A program made the translations under genes and the position numbers. Below are positions 4,643 to 37,548 of a stretch of 64,000 nt of DNA, in pieces. The notes under the pieces are model-generated. The model was given only the letters and a program-made list of their open reading frames with translations. It had not been told where the DNA came from and ran no database searches. Positions within the stretch are counted from its first letter, which is position 1, and each line of letters opens with the position of its first letter. Source of the stretch: Candidatus Woesearchaeota archaeon (GTDB taxonomy: Archaea > Nanobdellota > Nanobdellia > Woesearchaeales > ARS49); assembly GCA_016188265.1 (NCBI GenBank), contig JACPID010000001.1, forward strand, positions 1,674-65,673, in the 5' to 3' direction.

Positions 4643-4759
4643 AAAACCATCCTTTTATACAAAAATACTGACTATGCTTTTTAATGTTTTATAGTGTTAA
4701 ATTTGTAGGTTAAATACTTTATTTTAGAATCTCGCTTTTTATTTTCTTGTCTTGAAATT

Positions 4760-5071
4760 TCATGATTTAACACTCATTTCTAACAGTTTTGGGTTATGCG
4801 TCCATAATACCGAACCATCTTTATCAATAACTATTTTCCCAGAACTTTCCAAATAATTAAGAATTATTTTAAAAGTTTGATACATTATTTTTTTAGGTAA
4901 AGACTTCCATAACTGCATCTTATTAGGATACTCTCCTGATTTTTTAATTGCATTTTCTACCATTAAAATAGTATCCAAACGAGGATAATGTATAACTTCA
5001 ACTTTTTGTTTTTTCATTAATAATTGCATTTCAACCACCTTGCATAAACTTATATAATTATATAAACGCAT
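4760..5071 (-). CDS. small winged-helix-like protein, paralog of 15575..15859
   Basis: PRLDTILMVENAIKKSGEYPNKMQLWKSLPKKIMYQTFKIILNYLE matches PTLDTVLMVERIIEENSGEYNRTELWKNLPRKVMWQTFLVILDYLE at the second locus. Confidence 0.5.
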   Translation of the reverse strand: MRLYNYISLCKVVEMQLLMKKQKVEVIHYPRLDTILMVENAIKKSGEYPNKMQLWKSLPKKIMYQTFKIILNYLESSGKIVIDKDGSVLWTHNPKLLEMSVKS

Positions 5072-5193
5072 ATAATATATAAATCTTTTGTTTAAAAACC
5101 AGAAAAACTCACCATATCTTTAGCGAGTTGTAAATTTGCAAATCTCTTGTGTTTCTTTGAGTAAATAGCTTTTCTATAAATATTTAGAGAGAA

Positions 5194-5934
5194 TTATTCT
5201 TTTGCTGTTTGCCATAATATGTTGAAGTAGGATTTGAATGACGCGCTTATTTCTTTGCTTTGTATTAGTATTGCAAATGGTCTGTCTCCTGCTAACCATA
5301 AGAGTAGAACCGTTTTATTTCCATAAATATATATAGTCATAGGGCTTTCATGTGTTTTAGGAAGATATTTTACTTCTGTTAAAGAATAAGTCTTAAATTC
5401 TTCACCTAGTTTGACTCCTTCTCCTGTTTGGTTAATGAGTGTTTTAAGTTTTATTTTGTTTTTTATTCTTTCTTTATGAAATCTCTGAATAAAAAATAAT
5501 GGTAAGATCTGTCTACTTTTTCCTGTGGTTCCTATGGCAAACCAATCTTTTCTGGTTCTTAGAATATCATTAAGAATTGTTTTCATTCCTTCTTTATCTT
5601 CATAAACTTCAACAAATGGCTTTGAGAATGCTATTTGATGAAACGCTTTAAGATTAGGTAAAATGCTTAATATAGAATGTTCTTTTTCTTTTAAGTAATC
5701 TAAAATCTTTTCAGGAGGTGCTGCATGAAAAAATTTAATATTATTTTTGACAACATAAGAAACCAATCCGCGGCTTATGAGACTTCTTAATGTATCGTAT
5801 AGGTGTGTTCTGGATTCATTTGTTTTCTTTGCTATATCCGCTACAGTTGCTTCTTGGAGCTGTAATAGTGCTAAATATGCGTCGGCCTCTCTGTTTGATA
5901 GTCCAATTCTTATTAATTGATCTTTCTCGCTCAT
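5194..5934 (-). CDS. TrmB-family HTH transcriptional regulator (paralog 1)
   Basis: N-terminal TrmB wHTH: LSNREADAYLALLQLQEATVADIAKKTNESRTHLYDTLRSLISRGLV. Confidence 0.7.
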   Translation of the reverse strand: MSEKDQLIRIGLSNREADAYLALLQLQEATVADIAKKTNESRTHLYDTLRSLISRGLVSYVVKNNIKFFHAAPPEKILDYLKEKEHSILSILPNLKAFHQIAFSKPFVEVYEDKEGMKTILNDILRTRKDWFAIGTTGKSRQILPLFFIQRFHKERIKNKIKLKTLINQTGEGVKLGEEFKTYSLTEVKYLPKTHESPMTIYIYGNKTVLLLWLAGDRPFAILIQSKEISASFKSYFNILWQTAKE

Positions 5935-15384: not shown

Positions 15385-15574
15385 CAAAACATCACAACAT
15401 TTCCAACATTATTGGTTTTCTCTTTTTTCTTATTGCATTAAACCCTCGATTATTTGTTTCCCTTCACAAAACAAATATAGAGTGTAAAACTTTGAGAGTT
15501 TTATCGATTTGCTGCAAGTTCTAAAAATACTATTCTGTGAATGCAAAGATTTATATATCAATTGATATATTGTA

Positions 15575-15859
15575 TTGTGTATGAAAGCTGAACTTTTAGA
15601 GAATCCTTTTGTAAGATCTCCTACTTTAGATACTGTTTTGATGGTGGAAAGAATTATAGAAGAAAATAGTGGAGAATATAACAGAACTGAACTATGGAAA
15701 AACTTACCAAGAAAAGTAATGTGGCAGACTTTTCTCGTCATTTTGGATTATTTAGAAAACATTAACAAAATTGCTTTTGATAAAGAAGGAAAAATTGCCT
15801 ACATATGGAATCCTGATCTTGCAAAAAAGCTTAGACAAAGAAAGGAGATTAAAGTATGA
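15575..15859 (+). CDS. putative antitoxin, small winged-helix protein (paralog of 4760..5071)
   Basis: Paralogy with 4760..5071. 4-nt ATGA overlap with the downstream RelE-like gene. GGAG Shine-Dalgarno-like motif before the toxin start. Confidence 0.5.
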   Translation: MCMKAELLENPFVRSPTLDTVLMVERIIEENSGEYNRTELWKNLPRKVMWQTFLVILDYLENINKIAFDKEGKIAYIWNPDLAKKLRQRKEIKV

Positions 15860-16182
15860 TTAAGGCATCAAAAGTCGTATTTATCTCGCAAGAGTTAGAA
15901 GACGACTTCAACTCACTTAAACCAGATGATCCCATCAAGAAAGCAATGATTAGAGCCATTCAAGACTTAAAACAAAATGCGTTCTCAGGAATACAAGTAC
16001 CAAAAAGACTGTTTCCTAAGGAATATGTTCAAAAGTATGGAATAACCAACTTATGGAAATACGACCTACCTAGAGGCTGGAGACTTTTGTATACAATAAC
16101 TGCAGACAACGAAGTAGACTTAATCTCAGCAATTCTAGAATGGTTCAACCATAAAGATTACGAAAGAAAATTTAGATATTAG
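15856..16182 (+). CDS. RelE/ParE-superfamily toxin
   Basis: VVFISQELEDDFNSLKPDDPIKKAMIRAIQDLKQNAF...NLWKYDLPRGWRLLYTITADNEVDLISAILEWFNHKDYERKF fits the RelE/YoeB pattern. Confidence 0.6.
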   Translation: MIKASKVVFISQELEDDFNSLKPDDPIKKAMIRAIQDLKQNAFSGIQVPKRLFPKEYVQKYGITNLWKYDLPRGWRLLYTITADNEVDLISAILEWFNHKDYERKFRY

Positions 16183-16204
16183 TATAATTCACCCAATAAT
16201 TGAC

Positions 16205-16987
16205 TTAATTGTTGAGTGTGAACTGTTGAAGGATATTTGAGCATTTGGTTTGTTCTCTTGTTTTTCGAGTTGTATTTTTGTGTTTCCATATTTTATTGAA
16301 ATATTCTTGGTACATTTGGCTTATTTGTTTTGATCTTATTAAGTAGCCTATTGGTTTTTCTGACCAAGCTATTAATGCTACTTTGCTTTGGCATATACTT
16401 ATATCTGAAGGTATTGGAAAGTCTGCATATTTCATGTGTAGTATTTTTCTTCCAATAAATAATTCTTTGATATCTTTTTGGGCGATTCCTCTGACGTATA
16501 AACCTTTTTCAGCCCTTTTAATGTCAAATTTTCTGAAAAAGTCTTGTATTTCTTTATTTTTATCTTTTAAGTATGTTGCAAAAAAATAGTATTCATCGCC
16601 TTTTTTTGCATCTTCAATAAGTAAAGTAAGCATCACCATAATTCCTTTAATTCCTTCAAAAATCTCAGCTTCTTGTCTTTCAACACCTTTTCGTTTTATT
16701 TCAAGTTCTGGAAGAATGTTGGACAATCTTTTTTTCTTTTCTTCAATAAAATCGAGTAATTGCTTTGGAGGAACTGCTTGGTATTGCTTGATTTTTCCTT
16801 TTTTAATGTATGAAACCAGTCCTTTTTCGATTAATGTGTTTATTGAATTATGAACTGCTGAACTTGCCATTCCTGATTTCTCTATTATTGCGCCAACTTT
16901 TGTAGTTCCGAGTTCAAGAAGAGTTAGGTATGTTTTGATCTCTCCTTTACTAAGCCCTAAATCTTCAAGTATTAAAGTATCCATCAA
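16205..16987 (-). CDS. TrmB-family HTH transcriptional regulator (paralog 2)
   Basis: LSKGEIKTYLTLLELGTTKVGAIIEKSGMASSAVHNSINTLIEKGLVSY. A/C-ending codon usage. Confidence 0.7.
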   Translation of the reverse strand: MMDTLILEDLGLSKGEIKTYLTLLELGTTKVGAIIEKSGMASSAVHNSINTLIEKGLVSYIKKGKIKQYQAVPPKQLLDFIEEKKKRLSNILPELEIKRKGVERQEAEIFEGIKGIMVMLTLLIEDAKKGDEYYFFATYLKDKNKEIQDFFRKFDIKRAEKGLYVRGIAQKDIKELFIGRKILHMKYADFPIPSDISICQSKVALIAWSEKPIGYLIRSKQISQMYQEYFNKIWKHKNTTRKTREQTKCSNILQQFTLNN

Positions 16988-17085: not shown

Positions 17086-17742
17086 ATGAATTGGAGGTGT
17101 TTCAAAATGAACCTTAAACAAAAAATACAAAACATATTACTTGCAACAACACTCACTTTTACAGGTTGTGCTGAAACAAAACCTTTTGGAAAAGTAGCAA
17201 GCTACTACGACACCAAAGGACAACCAACAGCAACAATAGCTGGAGGAGCTACAGACTTACCACTAGGAACTAAACTATTTGGATTTGCAGATGTTGAAAC
17301 AGAAAAAGAAAATCCAGATAACTTACAAAATCCTTACATAGAACTTCAACTTTCAAAAAAAGCAAGCAATGGTCTAGGAATAGCTACAGAATACAACAGA
17401 AATTTCTCACTTGAAAAAGGAATTACAAGAGCTGGATTTGTTTATGAACCAAATCTTGCAGAAATACTAAAAAATACAAGAATAGGATTAAAATTCTACC
17501 CAACAGCCACAGACAATCATGGAATGCAAGCAGGATTCTATGGAAGCAAAAGCTTCAACAAAGGAGACATAACTCTTGATACATTTCTTGACTACAATAT
17601 AGATGCAAAAAGAATTGTCAGTGACTTACAAGTTGGAAAAAAACTTGGAGAAAACTTCTACTTTGTATTAGAAGGAAGACACAACGGATTCAAGAAAAAA
17701 GACAAAGAAGGCTTAGGAATTGGATTTGAATGGAGATGGTGA
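17086..17742 (+). CDS. putative lipoprotein with beta-rich, OMP-like composition
   Basis: Lipobox LTFTGCAE, alternating beta-strand-like segments, aromatic C-terminus GFEWRW. The start is more likely the second Met, at 17107. A/C-ending codon usage unlike neighbouring genes. Confidence 0.5.
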   Translation: MNWRCFKMNLKQKIQNILLATTLTFTGCAETKPFGKVASYYDTKGQPTATIAGGATDLPLGTKLFGFADVETEKENPDNLQNPYIELQLSKKASNGLGIATEYNRNFSLEKGITRAGFVYEPNLAEILKNTRIGLKFYPTATDNHGMQAGFYGSKSFNKGDITLDTFLDYNIDAKRIVSDLQVGKKLGENFYFVLEGRHNGFKKKDKEGLGIGFEWRW

Positions 17743-17802: not shown

Positions 17803-18153
17803 TTATTTTCTAACATAAAGATCAACTCTGCAAGGCCCAAAACCAATCCTATCACAAGTTTGTCCTCTATCTTTTAGCATTTGATAACCTTCTTGAGAAA
17901 TTATTATCAAATACTTTGTTATTGCTTCAAAACAAGCACCTTTAGGCAGACTTTCCATTTCAACAAAAAGATTATTTTGTAATCTTCCAAGAAATAACTC
18001 AATTTCTCTCATCGGATTCAATTCTGCAGGTAATTCTCTAACTTTAGCTGTTCCTTTAAGAGTTTCATGCTCAAGCATAGACAATTCATCAACACACAAA
18101 TCAATACCAATCTCTAAACCAAGACTTATACTCGCTTTCATTTTAACAAGCAA
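17803..18153 (-). CDS. hypothetical protein
   Basis: 116-aa ORF with host-like codon usage. No motif recognised. Confidence 0.35.
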   Translation of the reverse strand: MLVKMKASISLGLEIGIDLCVDELSMLEHETLKGTAKVRELPAELNPMREIELFLGRLQNNLFVEMESLPKGACFEAITKYLIIISQEGYQMLKDRGQTCDRIGFGPCRVDLYVRK

Positions 18154-18244
18154 ATAACATTGTTAAATTTAAAATTATTGATTAAAAAAGAAAAATAAAG
18201 AGAAGACACCAACCAATTTAGTGATTGATACTCTCTTAATGTCA

Positions 18245-18805
18245 CTAAAAATAAACAGTAGTCTTTTTTAGACTGTTTAGATATTCTCTTGGGTTTTTAA
18301 AGCCTAATACTTCTAGTACTTCTATTGCTGCTTTGTTTACTTGAGAAGAACCAAAAAAGTCTCTTATATCATAATGTTTTGTTATATCCTTTAGCCCTTT
18401 AATAAATGCTTTTTTTAGTTTTTCTTGAGTTTGAGTTGAGCGTGGATGATATCTTATAGGTTTAGGTGTGTAATTGTAATCTCCCCAATAACTTCCTCCC
18501 CTAAATGTCCTCTGTTCAGGCTGGTAACTTCTAGTTCTATTAATTTGTTGAATTAAATCTTTTAAACAAGGAGCTTTTTCTCTTGACACATTTGAGGCAC
18601 TAATAATAATACCATAGTGAACTCTGCTTAGAAAAGGATTTTTAAAACTTTTATATTCATTAATTCTATGAGTTTTTACAAGTAATTCTAAAACTTTTAA
18701 TGGATCTTCTCTACAATACCAAATTTCTTTAGGTACTGAATAAATATATCCATCACTGTCTTCAAGAATTCCTTCTAAACTTATTTTGGTTGGCATTTTT
18801 TCCAT
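18245..18805 (-). CDS. hypothetical protein (downstream member of an overlapping pair)
   Basis: Overlaps the upstream ORF by 25 nt in a different frame. Confidence 0.4.
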   Translation of the reverse strand: MEKMPTKISLEGILEDSDGYIYSVPKEIWYCREDPLKVLELLVKTHRINEYKSFKNPFLSRVHYGIIISASNVSREKAPCLKDLIQQINRTRSYQPEQRTFRGGSYWGDYNYTPKPIRYHPRSTQTQEKLKKAFIKGLKDITKHYDIRDFFGSSQVNKAAIEVLEVLGFKNPREYLNSLKKTTVYF

Positions 18806-19428
18806 ACTCCCAAAAGTTTTTTAGGATGTGCAATCTCTAGTCTTGGTGATTCATTTGGTGAAGGAATTTCTAAATCCACAAAATGGCCACTCCAGCCACC
18901 GAAATCACTACTGTAATAAGATGTTACAGCTTTTATGCATTCATCATAACCAAAAAGAAGAGGCATAAATTGAGGTCTTGATTCATATCTGGTTAAGTTT
19001 AAAAATATTTCATCACTATACCAAAAATGATATCTATCTTTATTACCTCTATCTTTTTTTAGTAATGCTTCTAATTCTGAAGGATTAAGCATCTCTCTGC
19101 CTTTTTTAGTTTCTTGAAATGCTTTTGCATAATTAACCCCAAAATTATGAACTATTGCTAAAACTCTTGAATTTTCTGGTGGAGCTTTGTAAGATTCATC
19201 ATTAATGTATGTTGGACTTCCTTTAACAACCACATTTCGACCATTAATTTTTAGAACAATATCTGCCAAATCTTTATTTTGCTCTACTTTTCTTGAGCTT
19301 TCGTCAATTGCTTTGTGAGCTGAAGAAATCACACCTTCATACATTGAGTCTAACATTTGTGATAGAGTTTGCCCTCTTTGACTTGGTGAGTGATCACACA
19401 TTATTTTTCCACAAATTGAACAAGTCAT
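18781..19428 (-). CDS. hypothetical protein with N-terminal Cys cluster (upstream member of an overlapping pair)
   Basis: Begins MTCSICGKIMCDH. No further motif recognised. Confidence 0.4.
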   Translation of the reverse strand: MTCSICGKIMCDHSPSQRGQTLSQMLDSMYEGVISSAHKAIDESSRKVEQNKDLADIVLKINGRNVVVKGSPTYINDESYKAPPENSRVLAIVHNFGVNYAKAFQETKKGREMLNPSELEALLKKDRGNKDRYHFWYSDEIFLNLTRYESRPQFMPLLFGYDECIKAVTSYYSSDFGGWSGHFVDLEIPSPNESPRLEIAHPKKLLGVWKKCQPK

Positions 19429-19556: not shown

Positions 19557-20291
19557 ATGATTGACAAATATAGTGAAGTTTTGAAAGAGTTTGGACTTTC
19601 AGAAAATGAAGTTAAAGTATACATAACTCTGTTAAAAACTGGAGAATCCGGTGTTCAAAATCTGGCTAAAAATGCAGGACTTCCAAGAACAACAACATAC
19701 CACCTCCTAGAAAGCTTATCACAAAAAGGTCTTGTAAGCCACATCGATAAAAATAAAATAAGATACTTCCAAGCAGCAAATCCTAAAATAATTCCAGAAA
19801 TTCTTGAAGAACAGAAAAAACACATCAAAGAAATAATTCCAGAACTCTTAACAATCGCAGAAACCTTTACAGAAAAGCCCAAAGTTGAAGTTTACGAAGG
19901 AATCAAAGGAATAAAAACAATTCTGGAAGACACACTAGAAACAAAAAAAGAAATACTTCATTATGGAGACATAATATCTTTACAAAACTCATTAAAATAC
20001 ATATTTCCTCAATTTATCAACAAAAGAGTAGAAAAGAAAATACCAATCAAAATACTCTGCAAAAAAGAAGCAGCACACAAAGAATTACTAGAAACAGCTA
20101 AAAAACAATACCGAGAATTCAAATTTATACCATCAAACTACACATTCAAATCAAGCATATTCATCTACAACAAAAAAGTAGCAATACTAAGCCTTCAACA
20201 AGAACCATACTACGGAATCATAATAGACAACGAGGATTTTCACCAAACACAAAAAAACATGTTCGAACTATTATGGCAAACAAAACACTAA
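19557..20291 (+). CDS. TrmB-family HTH transcriptional regulator (paralog 3)
   Basis: LSENEVKVYITLLKTGESGVQNLAKNAGLPRTTTYHLLESLSQKGLVSH. Strongly A/C-rich coding strand. Confidence 0.7.
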   Translation: MIDKYSEVLKEFGLSENEVKVYITLLKTGESGVQNLAKNAGLPRTTTYHLLESLSQKGLVSHIDKNKIRYFQAANPKIIPEILEEQKKHIKEIIPELLTIAETFTEKPKVEVYEGIKGIKTILEDTLETKKEILHYGDIISLQNSLKYIFPQFINKRVEKKIPIKILCKKEAAHKELLETAKKQYREFKFIPSNYTFKSSIFIYNKKVAILSLQQEPYYGIIIDNEDFHQTQKNMFELLWQTKH

Positions 20292-36997: not shown

Positions 36998-37386
36998 TTC
37001 TAGTTCTTGATACTTCAATACTCATAGAATTAGAAAGAAAAAATATATCAGTTATTGAGAAGCTAAGAAAATATGTTGAACTATATCCATCTCCTGCACA
37101 AATAACATTTATGAATTATTTTGAATTTTATCATGGTTTGCAGAATAAAAATATTAAGAATAAGGAAAAGGTTCTCTCTTTTATTAATAAATTTAACATA
37201 CTAAAATTAACTAAAGAAACCGCAAAGTTTCTAAGTGATTTAAAGACCAAATATGATAATCAGGGTATTTCTATTTCATTGGCAGATCTAATAATAGCAA
37301 GTCAAGTTATAGAGAATAATCTTATATTAATAACATTAGATAAAGATTTCGAAAAAATAAAAGAATTAAAAAAGATAATTTTGTGA
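36994..37386 (+). CDS. vapC: PIN-domain ribonuclease VapC toxin
   Basis: MILVLDTSILIE with conserved acidic positions. Ends 1 nt before tRNA-Leu. Confidence 0.65.
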   Translation: MILVLDTSILIELERKNISVIEKLRKYVELYPSPAQITFMNYFEFYHGLQNKNIKNKEKVLSFINKFNILKLTKETAKFLSDLKTKYDNQGISISLADLIIASQVIENNLILITLDKDFEKIKELKKIIL

Positions 37387-37470
37387 TGCAGGAGGCAGGA
37401 TTCGAACCTGCGAAGGCACTAAGCCAACAGCTCTTGAGGCTGCCACGTTTGACCACTTCGCTACTCCTGC
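37387..37470 (-). tRNA. tRNA-Leu (anticodon CAA), no encoded CCA
   Basis: Reverse complement folds as GCAGGAG acceptor, D arm, anticodon stem GCAGC / loop CTCAAGA / stem GCTGT, long variable arm, T arm GCAGG-TTCGAAT-CCTGC, discriminator A. Confidence 0.85.
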
Positions 37471-37548
37471 ATAAAACAAGTAAAAGATCAATAAAATATA
37501 AATGTTTACTTAAAAACCTTTAAATAATTAGAAAAATCTAGTACGTTA

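What the first reader, a model, noticed from the sequence alone, without database searches (positions are those of the whole stretch)
15575..16987. RelE-like toxin module embedded in a recurring small-wH-protein plus TrmB-regulator neighbourhood
15856..16182 is a RelE/ParE-type toxin, ATGA-overlapped with the upstream small gene 15575..15859. That small gene has a clear paralog at 4760..5071 which lacks a toxin but again sits directly beside a TrmB-family regulator (5194..5934). The second locus ends with TrmB paralog 2 (16205..16987, convergent), and a third TrmB paralog lies at 19557..20291. The repeated pairing of the small PxLDTxLMVE protein with TrmB paralogs, once with a RelE toxin attached, suggests an uncharacterised regulatory cassette in which an antitoxin-like wH protein has been co-opted, or a toxin lost.
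Basis: partly seen in the sequence, partly recalled or inferred. Interest (0 to 1): 0.6.

Follow-up and report, generated by a model that had tools for sequence, protein, structure and literature searches.

The report
Archaeal toxin-antitoxin pair plus orphan antitoxin
This is a toxin-antitoxin gene pair of a family not yet catalogued, found in tiny symbiotic archaea, plus a second copy that kept its antitoxin and only a stub of its toxin; the neighbouring TrmB regulators appear to be there by coincidence.

Summary
The window comes from a Woesearchaeota (DPANN) genome.

- **The pair.** Gene 15581..15859 encodes a predicted winged-helix protein with no Pfam family. It overlaps by ATGA a YoeB/RelE-like gene at 15856..16182. 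In front sits a 16-bp perfect palindrome, TATATCAATTGATATA, overlapping the TATA box. The palindrome is exact or within one mismatch in all 80 orthologous loci.
- **The paralog.** The gene at 4760..5029 is an orphan antitoxin. It has its own promoter and is followed by a 14-codon stub of a toxin gene. Its relatives elsewhere usually carry a full toxin.
- **Toxin decay.** About a third of 137 informative related loci have a broken or missing toxin beside an intact antitoxin. This is the expected decay pattern of toxin-antitoxin modules.
- **TrmB.** TrmB adjacency is not conserved: 5 of 160 loci, and none in the closest relatives. The "TrmB cassette" idea fails and "toxin lost" holds.
- **Unexplained.** The main clade is 63-93% identical between species whose other shared genes are about 41% identical, yet it never sits in the same place.
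- **Side observation.** In a minority of other genomes the module is bracketed by inverted-repeat ends.

Interest is moderate to low.

The parts
15543..15557 (+). BRE-like purine stretch (GCAAAGA) followed by the TATA box TTTATATA: the archaeal promoter of the module
   Evidence: Read directly from the sequence. The same (G/C)AAA(G/C)NTTTATATA layout lies upstream in the 80 orthologous loci. Nucleotide homology to other genomes begins at about 15545.
15554..15569 (.). Perfect 16-bp palindrome TATATCAATTGATATA overlapping the TATA box, 11 nt before the ATG: predicted operator for the winged-helix antitoxin
   Evidence: Exact or within one mismatch in all 80 orthologous loci. It is the only exact copy in the window. 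Binding by the protein is inferred, not shown.
15581..15859 (+). Antitoxin candidate: a 92-aa winged-helix protein with a low-confidence basic C-terminal tail; no Pfam or NCBIfam family
   Evidence: The AF2 model is H-H-H plus a beta-hairpin wing, with pLDDT above 90 over residues 20-70. Foldseek gives only generic winged-helix matches. No Pfam or NCBIfam family matches. There are 1337 close homologs and 872 clusters at 50% identity.
15856..16182 (+). Toxin candidate: a 108-aa YoeB/RelE-like protein, predicted to be a ribosome-dependent mRNA endonuclease
   Evidence: It overlaps the small gene by ATGA. ParE_toxin matches 20 of 29 family members and YoeB_toxin 16 of 29, and no other family matches. 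The family profile's top four PDB hits are all YoeB-family toxin chains (one deposited under an antitoxin name). hhalign against E. coli YoeB gives 86% probability, E = 5e-6. The Foldseek top hits are HigB2. R76, H99, Y102 and Y108 are invariant.
4760..5029 (-). Orphan antitoxin paralog (89 aa from ATG 5029; NCBI aa from 5017)
   Evidence: It is 52% identical to the 15581 protein, E = 3e-25. Its family is followed by an intact toxin homolog in 38 of 64 informative loci. The core is under purifying selection, with pN 0.08-0.27 and synonymous sites saturated.
5041..5092 (-). The paralog's own promoter (AAAAGATTTATATA) plus operator-like repeats TTATATGCGTTTATATAA and TTATATAAGTTTATGCAA
   Evidence: Read from the sequence. 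L081 and other family loci have the same layout. The paralog is therefore not in an operon with TrmB1.
4719..4763 (-). Toxin gene stub: a 14-codon ORF MKFQDKKIKSEILK* overlapping the paralog's stop by ATGA
   Evidence: At the same position L081 has MKFQYKKKEVRFVDESLK... continuing as a toxin-homolog ORF up to the contig end. Window/L081 nucleotide homology (78% over 132 nt) runs 33 nt past the antitoxin stop and then ends.
16205..16984 (-). TrmB-like regulator 2, convergent with the toxin across a 22-bp gap: a neighbour, not part of the module
   Evidence: PF01978, E = 1e-13. The adjacency is not conserved.
5194..5934 (-). TrmB-like regulator 1, upstream of the orphan antitoxin on the same strand: a neighbour, not part of the module
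   Evidence: PF01978, E = 7.5e-16. A 165-bp spacer containing the paralog's own promoter separates the two genes.
19557..20291 (+). TrmB-like regulator 3, with no small gene beside it
   Evidence: PF01978, E = 5e-19.

Best explanation
Region 15543..16182 is a self-contained, autoregulated type II toxin-antitoxin module of a DPANN-specific family.

**How it most likely works**
- The downstream 108-aa protein is a YoeB/RelE-fold toxin. It is inferred to cleave mRNA on the ribosome.
- The upstream 92-aa winged-helix protein is its antitoxin. It is inferred to bind and neutralise the toxin.
- As a dimer, the antitoxin is inferred to bind the 16-bp palindrome that overlaps the TATA box. This would block assembly of TBP/TFB and RNA polymerase on a probably leaderless transcript, so the operon represses itself.
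- When the labile antitoxin falls, the toxin is freed and translation stops.

**The second locus**
- The gene at 4760..5029 belongs to a sister clade of the same family. It has lost its toxin by deletion, leaving a 14-codon stub.
- It keeps its own promoter and operator-like repeats. It probably persists as an autoregulated orphan antitoxin, possibly giving immunity against related toxins.

**TrmB**
- The three TrmB-like regulators are unrelated neighbours.

**Shown versus inferred**
- Shown: gene layout, homology, predicted folds, operator conservation, toxin decay, and non-conservation of the TrmB adjacency.
- Inferred: toxicity, neutralisation, DNA binding and mRNA cleavage.
For: **Toxin identity**
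- ParE_toxin and YoeB_toxin are the only Pfam families hit by family members, in 20 and 16 of 29.
- The family profile's top four PDB hits are all YoeB-family toxin chains, one of them deposited under an antitoxin name.
- hhalign against E. coli YoeB gives 86% probability, E = 5e-6, and aligns the catalytic R65 with the invariant R76.
- The Foldseek top hits are HigB2.
- H99, Y102 and Y108 are invariant near the C-terminus, where YoeB has H83 and Y84.

**Antitoxin identity**
- The model is a winged helix.
- The gene lies upstream. In 43 of 48 intact orthologous loci the overlap is the same 4-bp ATGA.
- Relatives of the domain are fused to MNT-type nucleotidyltransferases, a known antitoxin class.

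**Operator**
- The palindrome is exact or within one mismatch in all 80 loci, at a fixed distance from the TATA box and the ATG. It is better conserved than the coding sequence.

**Toxin liability**
- In the main clade, 14 of 73 informative loci have a disrupted toxin and 11 have none.
- The lesions are independent: nonsense codons at K28, R51, W67 and W75, plus frameshifts and truncations. The antitoxin stays intact.
- The paralog clade shows the same pattern.

**Mobility**
- Nucleotide homology is confined to 15545..16181.
- L023 and L034 share 90% identity over 663 bp with unrelated flanks.
- Neighbours differ in every locus examined.
- Some loci and MAGs carry several copies, for example L008, L017, and L019 with L040.
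Against: - No experiment has been done.
- The window toxin alone is below the Pfam and NCBIfam cutoffs.
- The structural matches are weak: Foldseek E = 0.035 and TM about 0.45-0.49, from a model with pLDDT 79.
- The YoeB general-base position E46 is a lysine here (K50), and there is a 7-residue insertion. The catalytic mechanism may therefore differ, or activity may be lost.
- The antitoxin's toxin-binding segment is not identified. Its tail is short, especially in the paralog clade.
- The main clade is far more conserved than typical mobile toxin-antitoxin modules. The toxin's GC3 tracks host GC. No copies were found on viral contigs or plasmids. These points fit long residence under strong selection better than a simple selfish element.
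Confidence: 0.8

Rival explanations
1. The pair is a domesticated, lineage-wide regulator-nuclease pair. The main clade would be a long-standing, strongly selected component of Woesearchaeota physiology, for example a translation or growth brake suited to a host-dependent lifestyle, rather than a selfish addiction module.
For: - The toxin is 63-93% identical between species, against a median of 41% for 19 ordinary flank homologs in the same locus pairs. Other window proteins are 27-52% identical to their homologs in these loci.
- Synonymous sites are saturated (pS 0.82) while pN is 0.145.
- Toxin GC3 tracks host GC, Spearman 0.63.
- 386 species-level genomes carry the small gene.
- No viral or plasmid copies were found.
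- Makarova et al. 2019 (PMC6393860) noted similarly unusual conservation of an MNT-HEPN toxin-antitoxin-like gene in DPANN.
Against: - Genomic position is not conserved in any comparison made.
- About one third of informative loci lack an intact toxin.
- Several copies occur per locus or per MAG.
- One clear case shows the module alone shared between unrelated contexts.
- Toxin identity does not correlate with flank identity: Spearman 0.21, p = 0.39, n = 19.
Confidence: 0.2
2. One reading: the small winged-helix protein and the TrmB regulators form a recurring regulatory cassette, in which an antitoxin-like protein has been co-opted to work with TrmB.
For: - In this window both small genes lie beside a TrmB paralog. 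My rough estimate of the chance under random gene order is about 0.004.
- A few other loci have a TrmB-like neighbour: L004, L007, L071, L085 and L138.
Against: - Only 5 of 160 loci have an adjacent TrmB-like gene, and 8 of 160 have one anywhere within the fetched flanks (5-6 kb requested per side).
- The closest relatives have no TrmB neighbour.
- Orientation and spacing differ between the two window loci, and the paralog has its own promoter.
- The third TrmB gene has no small gene beside it.
- The operator palindrome occurs nowhere else in the window.
Confidence: 0.03
3. The 108-aa protein keeps the RelE fold but is not an active toxin. It could be a ribosome-binding or RNA-binding factor, with the small protein as its transcriptional regulator only.
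For: - The position of YoeB E46 is a lysine.
- There is a 7-aa insertion relative to YoeB.
- Sequence and structure scores against known toxins are marginal.
- Conservation is unusually high.
Against: - Independent nonsense, frameshift and deletion lesions hit the toxin gene specifically while the antitoxin survives. This argues that the product is harmful when unchecked.
- The residues matching YoeB R65, and candidates for H83 and Y84, are invariant.
- From my own knowledge, E. coli RelE uses lysines rather than Glu/His at the equivalent positions.
Confidence: 0.1

Closest known systems
YefM-YoeB / Axe-Txe type II toxin-antitoxin systems (RelE/ParE superfamily; Pfam PF06769 and PF05016)
   Same: - Antitoxin-then-toxin operon of two small genes, here overlapping by 4 bp.
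- The toxin profile aligns to YoeB, with the conserved Arg of the (H/W)RL(V/L)Y strand and a C-terminal His/Tyr.
- A palindromic operator lies in the promoter, suggesting autoregulation.
   Different: - The antitoxin is a winged-helix protein with no similarity to Phd/YefM.
- Relative to YoeB the toxin has a 7-residue insertion, a 20-residue longer C-terminus, and Lys in place of Glu46.
- The window protein scores below the Pfam cutoffs.
- The promoter is archaeal (BRE/TATA), and the operator overlaps the TATA box.
Archaeal aRelE-aRelB (Pyrococcus horikoshii, Methanocaldococcus jannaschii)
   Same: An archaeal toxin of the RelE superfamily with an upstream antitoxin gene.
   Different: - From my own knowledge, aRelB wraps around the toxin and has no winged helix.
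- Neither the toxin alone nor the family profile found any PDB aRelE at E up to 10.
- One distant relative of the winged-helix protein (P0358) carries a marginal RelB-like match, 27.8 bits against a cutoff of 27.
HigB2-HigA2 (Vibrio cholerae superintegron cassette)
   Same: - It is the best structural match for the toxin model.
- It is a RelE-family toxin carried on a mobile gene cassette.
   Different: - The match is weak (E = 0.035).
- From my own knowledge, the HigBA gene order is toxin first and HigA is an XRE-type HTH.
- No integron integrase or canonical attC site was seen here.
Conserved MNT-HEPN toxin-antitoxin-like gene of DPANN (cls.004259; Makarova et al. 2019, PMC6393860)
   Same: A toxin-antitoxin-type module that is unusually well conserved across DPANN genomes.
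   Different: - The protein families are different.
- That gene is a fusion lying in housekeeping context.
- This pair has no fixed context.

Membership tests
Type II toxin-antitoxin system | Two small adjacent co-directional genes forming an operon, usually overlapping or closely spaced | tested here: met
   The genes overlap by ATGA at 15856..15859. The same 4-bp overlap is present in 43 of 48 intact orthologous loci.
Type II toxin-antitoxin system | Protein toxin belonging to a known toxin superfamily | tested here: met
   The assignment holds at family level. ParE_toxin and YoeB_toxin are the only Pfam families hit. YoeB-family toxin chains are the top PDB profile hits. hhalign gives 86% probability. 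The window protein alone is below threshold.
Type II toxin-antitoxin system | Antitoxin with a DNA-binding domain that autoregulates through an operator in its own promoter | tested here: inconclusive
   The fold is a predicted winged helix. The palindrome overlapping the TATA box is exact or within one mismatch in all 80 loci. Binding and repression were not tested.
Type II toxin-antitoxin system | Toxin arrests growth and the cognate antitoxin neutralises it by direct binding | not testable with these tools
   Only indirect support is available: recurrent independent inactivation of the toxin while the antitoxin is retained.
YoeB/RelE toxin family (PF06769, PF05016, TIGR02116) | Score above the curated family cutoff | tested here: not met
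   The window protein scores 18.8 bits against 23 for ParE_toxin, 18 against 27 for YoeB_toxin, and 16 against 51.8 for TIGR02116. Two close homologs, P0148 and P0153, carry a precomputed PF06769 hit.
YoeB/RelE toxin family (PF06769, PF05016, TIGR02116) | RelE fold: beta, alpha, alpha, then a three-stranded antiparallel sheet | tested here: inconclusive
   The AF2 model has E6-9, H12-20, H26-40, E46-48, H55-61, E66-70, E76-81, E86-90 and H99-105. The best Foldseek hits are HigB2, but only at E = 0.035 and TM 0.45-0.49.
YoeB/RelE toxin family (PF06769, PF05016, TIGR02116) | YoeB catalytic residues Glu46, Arg65, His83 and Tyr84 | tested here: inconclusive
   Arg65 aligns with the invariant R76, and Glu46 aligns with K50. 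H99, Y102 and Y108 are invariant, but they lie beyond the aligned region.
Phd/YefM, RelB, RHH, XRE or AbrB antitoxin families | Sequence match of the small protein to one of these families | tested here: not met
   Pfam, NCBIfam and PADLOC give no family for the small protein or its paralog. None of 35 diverse relatives matches one in the winged-helix core.
TrmB family transcription regulators (for the three neighbours) | N-terminal TrmB winged-helix-turn-helix domain (PF01978) | tested here: met
   E from 1e-13 to 5e-19 for all three proteins.
TrmB family transcription regulators (for the three neighbours) | Equivalence to the characterised sugar-sensing TrmB / TrmBL1 / TrmBL2 | tested here: not met
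   NCBIfam equivalog scores are 16-49 bits against cutoffs of 500-650, and only the N-terminal part aligns. The proteins are 244-260 aa, against 338-349 for the models.
Integron gene cassette (for the inverted-repeat-bracketed copies in other genomes) | An attC site with R'' (RYYYAAC) at its 5' end and R' (GTTRRRY) at its 3' end, downstream of the cassette ORF, with or without an IntI integrase | tested here: not met
   GTTAAAC lies to the left of the cargo and GTTTAAC to the right, which is the reverse of the order within a single attC. No tyrosine recombinase was noticed in these loci. An attC covariance model was not available.

The most novel reading that the evidence does not exclude
The main-clade module (promoter, operator and two genes, about 640 bp) may be an order-wide, long-resident but positionally mobile cassette.

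In a minority of Woesearchaeota genomes it is still bracketed by its vehicle, an undescribed inverted-repeat element:
- The left end is about 125 nt: GTTAAACTC ... AAATTTGAAGTCC ... GGGCAGTTTTCC.
- The right end is about 50 nt and is the mirror image of the left.
- The element also carries other small cargo genes.

This would be a new archaeal gene-cassette or MITE-like transport system. It could explain how toxin-antitoxin modules remain the most conserved yet least syntenic genes in these reduced genomes.
Probability: 0.2. Interest if true: 0.65.

Novelty: new variant of a known kind. Interest (0 to 1): 0.38.

Why it matters
- **A name for a hypothetical family.** The small winged-helix protein is labelled "hypothetical" in every source name listed. 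It forms at least 872 clusters at 50% identity and occurs in at least 386 species-level genomes. This work gives it a concrete, testable role as the antitoxin and autorepressor of a YoeB-like toxin.
- **An archaeal operator to test.** The palindrome sits on the TATA box, which offers a clean case for studying repression in archaea.
- **An annotation caution.** The TrmB adjacency should not be propagated as functional context.
- **The open question.** It is unclear why toxin-antitoxin modules are far better conserved than housekeeping genes in DPANN genomes while never keeping their position. If the inverted-repeat flanks turn out to be a cassette vehicle, that would be a new archaeal mobile-element type.

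Tried and rejected
- **PDB by sequence.** Single-sequence searches found nothing for the toxin and only noise for the small protein. A profile of close toxin homologs was also uninformative. Only a profile including divergent members reached YoeB.
- **Foldseek on the small protein.** It gave only generic winged-helix matches, with no E at or below 0.001.
- **PADLOC.** No defence-system match apart from a weak CARF_RelE hit for the toxin, E = 0.0056.
- **Viral and plasmid vectors.**
  - Exact scans of IMG/VR for the operator and for the repeat motif each returned four contigs. None of them encodes the proteins, and I judge the matches to be chance.
  - A toxin-profile scan of the viral contigs found no relative.
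  - PLSDB plasmids gave no match.
- **Left-end repeat as a structured RNA.** There was no Rfam hit and no consensus fold, at -0.6 kcal/mol. One hairpin had weak covariation, with 13-16 of 500 shuffles as good. The window has no copy of this element.
- **Integron attC reading.** Rejected because the core-site order is wrong.
- **Recent sweep as the cause of high identity.** Rejected because synonymous sites are saturated and GC3 has adjusted to the host.
Full report
**1. Observation**

The window is AT-rich (30.5% GC). It comes from a Candidatus Woesearchaeota MAG: the toxin-like protein is 100% identical to NCBI HYV79_00130 and the paralog to HYV79_00045, both on a contig of 91,644 bp.

Three starts need small corrections:
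- The small gene starts at ATG 15581, giving 92 aa, because homologs begin there.
- TrmB2 starts at ATG 16984.
- The paralog starts at ATG 5029 or 5017. The ATG at 5071 lies inside its own promoter.

The ATGA overlap at 15856 is real. The two small proteins are 52% identical over 71 aa, E = 3e-25. The three TrmB N-terminal domains are solid, at E from 1e-13 to 5e-19. They are the only three in the window.

**2. The 108-aa protein**

Taken alone, the protein is below every curated cutoff: ParE_toxin 18.8 bits against 23, YoeB_toxin 18 against 27, and TIGR02116 16 against 51.8. Taken as a family, the assignment is consistent:
- Of 29 members spanning 40-85% identity, 20 hit ParE_toxin and 16 hit YoeB_toxin. 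No other Pfam family appears.
- A profile of these members finds YoeB-family toxin chains as the top four PDB hits, one of them deposited under an antitoxin name.
- hhalign against E. coli YoeB gives 86% probability, E = 5e-6.
- The AF2 model (pLDDT 79) has the beta-alpha-alpha-beta-beta-beta order of the RelE fold.
- Its best Foldseek matches are the RelE-family toxin HigB2, though only weakly, at E = 0.035.

The YoeB catalytic Arg65 aligns with the invariant R76 in the strand GWRLLYT. YoeB Glu46 aligns with K50. There is a 7-residue insertion, FPKEYVQ. H99, Y102 and Y108 are invariant in the C-terminal HK-Y-ERRF-Y motif. They are plausible counterparts of YoeB His83 and Tyr84, but this was not established by alignment.

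**3. The 92-aa protein**

AF2 gives a confident three-helix bundle with a beta-hairpin wing, pLDDT above 90 for residues 20-70. The N-terminus and the basic C-terminal tail have low confidence. Foldseek returns only generic winged-helix DNA binders such as Zur, MarR, PadR, IclR and F93, none with E at or below 0.001. Pfam, NCBIfam and PADLOC have no family for it.

A full HMMER search with a profile of both paralog clades finds 872 clusters (at 50% identity) with E at or below 1e-3. Most are stand-alone proteins of 80-130 aa. Longer members include tandem duplications (P0307, P0310) and fusions to MNT-type nucleotidyltransferases (P0439, P0423), which are a known antitoxin class.

**4. A conserved operator**

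Aligning the upstream regions of 80 orthologous loci from different GTDB species shows the same motif throughout: (G/C)AAA(G/C)N-TTTATATATCAATTGATATA. This is a BRE-like stretch, a TATA box and a perfect 16-bp palindrome TATATCAATTGATATA overlapping the TATA box. The ATG follows 8-13 nt later. All 80 loci match the palindrome within one mismatch. In the window the palindrome is at 15554..15569 and is unique there. It is better conserved than the coding sequence. A dimeric winged-helix protein binding here would occlude the TATA box, which would be classic toxin-antitoxin autoregulation transposed to an archaeal promoter. The binding itself is inferred.

**5. Neighbourhood survey**

A scan of one genome per GTDB species found 386 genomes encoding a relative, and the best 80 loci were kept. 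Of the 73 loci with enough downstream sequence:

| Toxin state | Loci |
|---|---|
| Intact toxin directly downstream | 48 (43 with the same 4-bp overlap) |
| Disrupted toxin | 14 |
| No toxin | 11 |

The disruptions are independent events:
- Nonsense codons at K28 (L027), R51 (L056), W67 (L063) and W75 (L049), in otherwise conserved ORFs.
- Frameshifts in L009 and L020.
- Truncations in L065 and L046.

Some could be MAG errors. The pattern of toxin damaged and antitoxin intact is still what is expected when the toxin is harmful.

None of the window's flanking genes recurs beside the module in any locus. Nucleotide homology to the window runs only from about 15545 to 16181. L023 and L034 share 90% identity over 663 bp that covers just the module, with unrelated flanks. 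In the closest relatives with longer contigs, the pair sits between rpiB and rpe (L169, antitoxin 90% identical) or next to an ArsR-type HTH gene (L171, toxin 92% identical).

**6. The paralog**

Its family is smaller and more diverse, with 66 close hits. In 80 metagenome loci a toxin homolog, 37-63% identical to the window toxin, follows directly. Of the 64 informative loci, 38 have an intact toxin, 12 a disrupted one and 14 none.

The window paralog has its own BRE/TATA and operator-like repeats, at 5041..5092 on the minus strand, as does its closest relative L081. Its stop codon is overlapped by ATGA with a 14-codon ORF, MKFQDKKIKSEILK*. At the same place L081 has MKFQYKKKEVRF... continuing as a toxin-homolog ORF up to the contig end. 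Window/L081 nucleotide homology extends 33 nt past the antitoxin stop and then ends.

Among the five closest relatives of the paralog, L082 has an internal toxin deletion, L083 a truncation and L084 a frameshift. L085 is intact, and L081 is open up to the contig end. The orphan is intact, and its core shows low non-synonymous divergence.

**7. TrmB**

A TrmB HMM built from the three window proteins finds 8 TrmB-like genes in the 1.14 Mb of the 160 related loci. Five are immediate neighbours of a small gene or module: L004, L007, L071, L085 and L138. That is 3% of loci, with varied orientation, and none occurs in the closest relatives. In the window the two arrangements differ: TrmB1 is upstream and co-directional with a separate promoter between the genes, and TrmB2 is convergent. 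The three TrmB paralogs are only 28-35% identical to one another. I conclude that the adjacency is a local coincidence in a TrmB-rich 20-kb stretch.

**8. What remains odd**

The main clade is extraordinarily conserved:
- Toxins are 63-93% identical between locus pairs whose other shared genes have a median identity of 41%, over 19 non-toxin-antitoxin comparisons.
- Other window proteins are 27-52% identical to their homologs in these loci. ThyA, for example, is 42% where the toxin is 71%.

This is not a recent sweep. Synonymous sites are saturated, with median pS 0.82 and pN 0.145. Toxin GC3 tracks the GC of the host flanks across a range of 23-42%, Spearman 0.63, p = 5e-6. Toxin identity does not correlate with flank identity, Spearman 0.21, n = 19.

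I found no copies on IMG/VR viral contigs or PLSDB plasmids. A second toxin-antitoxin-type pair behaves the same way: a wHTH-nucleotidyltransferase gene plus a 146-aa partner is 81-85% identical between L003 and L006. Makarova et al. (PMC6393860) remarked on the same kind of oddity for an MNT-HEPN gene in DPANN. A plain selfish-element model does not fully explain this. I keep a domesticated-function rival at about 0.2.

**9. Side observation outside the window**

In roughly 10-15% of related loci the module is bracketed by an inverted-repeat element, sometimes enclosing extra cargo.
- The left end is about 125 nt: GTTAAACTC, a short hairpin, AAATTTGAAGTCC, a block of about 46 nt, then GGGCAGTTTTCC about 20 nt before the BRE.
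- The right end follows directly after the toxin stop: GGAAAACTGCCC, N12, GGACTTCAAATTT, then GAGTTTAAC.
- Similarity between loci stops at GTTAAAC.

Cargo varies between loci:
- The toxin-antitoxin pair alone in L005 and L018.
- The pair plus a further gene in L003 and L145.
- The antitoxin plus a 429-aa unknown protein that replaces the toxin in L061.
- An unrelated 267-aa gene in L008.

In L018 the same 28-nt hairpin-containing sequence flanks the unit on both sides in direct orientation. The element has no Rfam match and no supported RNA fold. Its core-site order does not fit a single integron attC (attC background from PMC9668308). The window has no copy. It may be a MITE-like or cassette vehicle. 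I could not settle this.

**10. Verdict**

The locus is a real toxin-antitoxin module of an uncatalogued, DPANN-restricted family, combining a divergent YoeB/RelE-like toxin with a new winged-helix antitoxin family and a TATA-overlapping operator. A decayed sister module has been reduced to an orphan antitoxin. The TrmB link is coincidental. It is a new variant of a known kind. Interest is moderate to low for the locus itself, with a more interesting unexplained conservation pattern and a possible cassette vehicle in related genomes.

Noticed in passing
L005:5919-6650, L018:5826-6650, L058:3718-4670, L061:4473-6410, L145:3921-5430, L003:2970-4630, L023:5821-6650, L008:3257-4250: An inverted-repeat element brackets the toxin-antitoxin module or other cargo. 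The left end is about 125 nt (GTTAAACTC ... AAATTTGAAGTCC ... GGGCAGTTTTCC) and the right end about 50 nt (GGAAAACTGCCC ... GGACTTCAAATTT ... GAGTTTAAC). Similarity between loci stops at GTTAAAC. It has no Rfam hit and is absent from the window. It may be a MITE-like or cassette vehicle.
   Followed up: partly
L018:5787-5816 and L018:6722-6749: The same hairpin-containing sequence, GGAGAAGTCTGCAAGACTTCGGAA, lies on both sides of the inverted-repeat-bounded unit in direct orientation. This suggests a repeated junction in an array of cassettes.
   Followed up: no
L027:3555-3880, L049:6258-6584, L056:6276-6602, L063:6252-6578: These toxin ORFs carry single in-frame stop codons, at K28, W75 (plus a second stop), R51 and W67, within otherwise fully conserved sequence. 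They could be recent natural knock-outs or assembly errors.
   Followed up: partly
L008:4585-7292: Three members of the winged-helix antitoxin family lie within 3 kb. One is a main-clade orphan and two are divergent pairs with intact toxins. A methyltransferase-like gene lies among them and GNAT-like genes flank the cluster, forming a small toxin-antitoxin island.
   Followed up: partly
L003:511-1529 and L006:7931-8949: A second toxin-antitoxin-type pair is 81-85% identical between two species, in different positions and orientations. It consists of a 193-aa wHTH plus nucleotidyltransferase protein and a 146-aa partner with no Pfam hit. It shows the same over-conservation as the YoeB-like pair.
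   Followed up: partly
P0316 (2213 aa), P0307, P0310, P0439, P0423: Relatives of the winged-helix domain occur as tandem duplications and as fusions to MNT-type nucleotidyltransferases. One 2213-aa protein matches the profile in 17 short stretches and was not examined.
   Followed up: partly
window 15430..15741 (- strand): This 103-aa ORF lies antisense to the small gene. Its apparent homologs in other loci simply mirror the conservation of the small gene, so it is not a real gene.
   Followed up: yes
window 17803..19428 (- strand) and 17086..17742 (+): Four genes lie between TrmB2 and TrmB3 with no Pfam family: 218 aa with a signal-peptide-like N-terminus, then 116, 186 and 215 aa. The 215-aa protein starts with a CxxC...C motif. 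They are unstudied.
   Followed up: no
window 5194..5934, 16205..16984, 19557..20291: The three TrmB-like proteins are 244-260 aa. Only their N-terminal 70-170 residues match TrmB models, and the C-terminal domain has no family. They are 28-35% identical to one another, which points to an expanded short TrmB-like family in this genome.
   Followed up: partly
L121, L122, L150, L156: In a few loci of the paralog family the toxin homolog lies on the opposite strand from the small gene, which is an inverted arrangement.
   Followed up: no
window 37385..37471 (- strand): tRNA-Leu(CAA) is the only tRNA gene in the window. It has no relation to the toxin-antitoxin loci.
   Followed up: no
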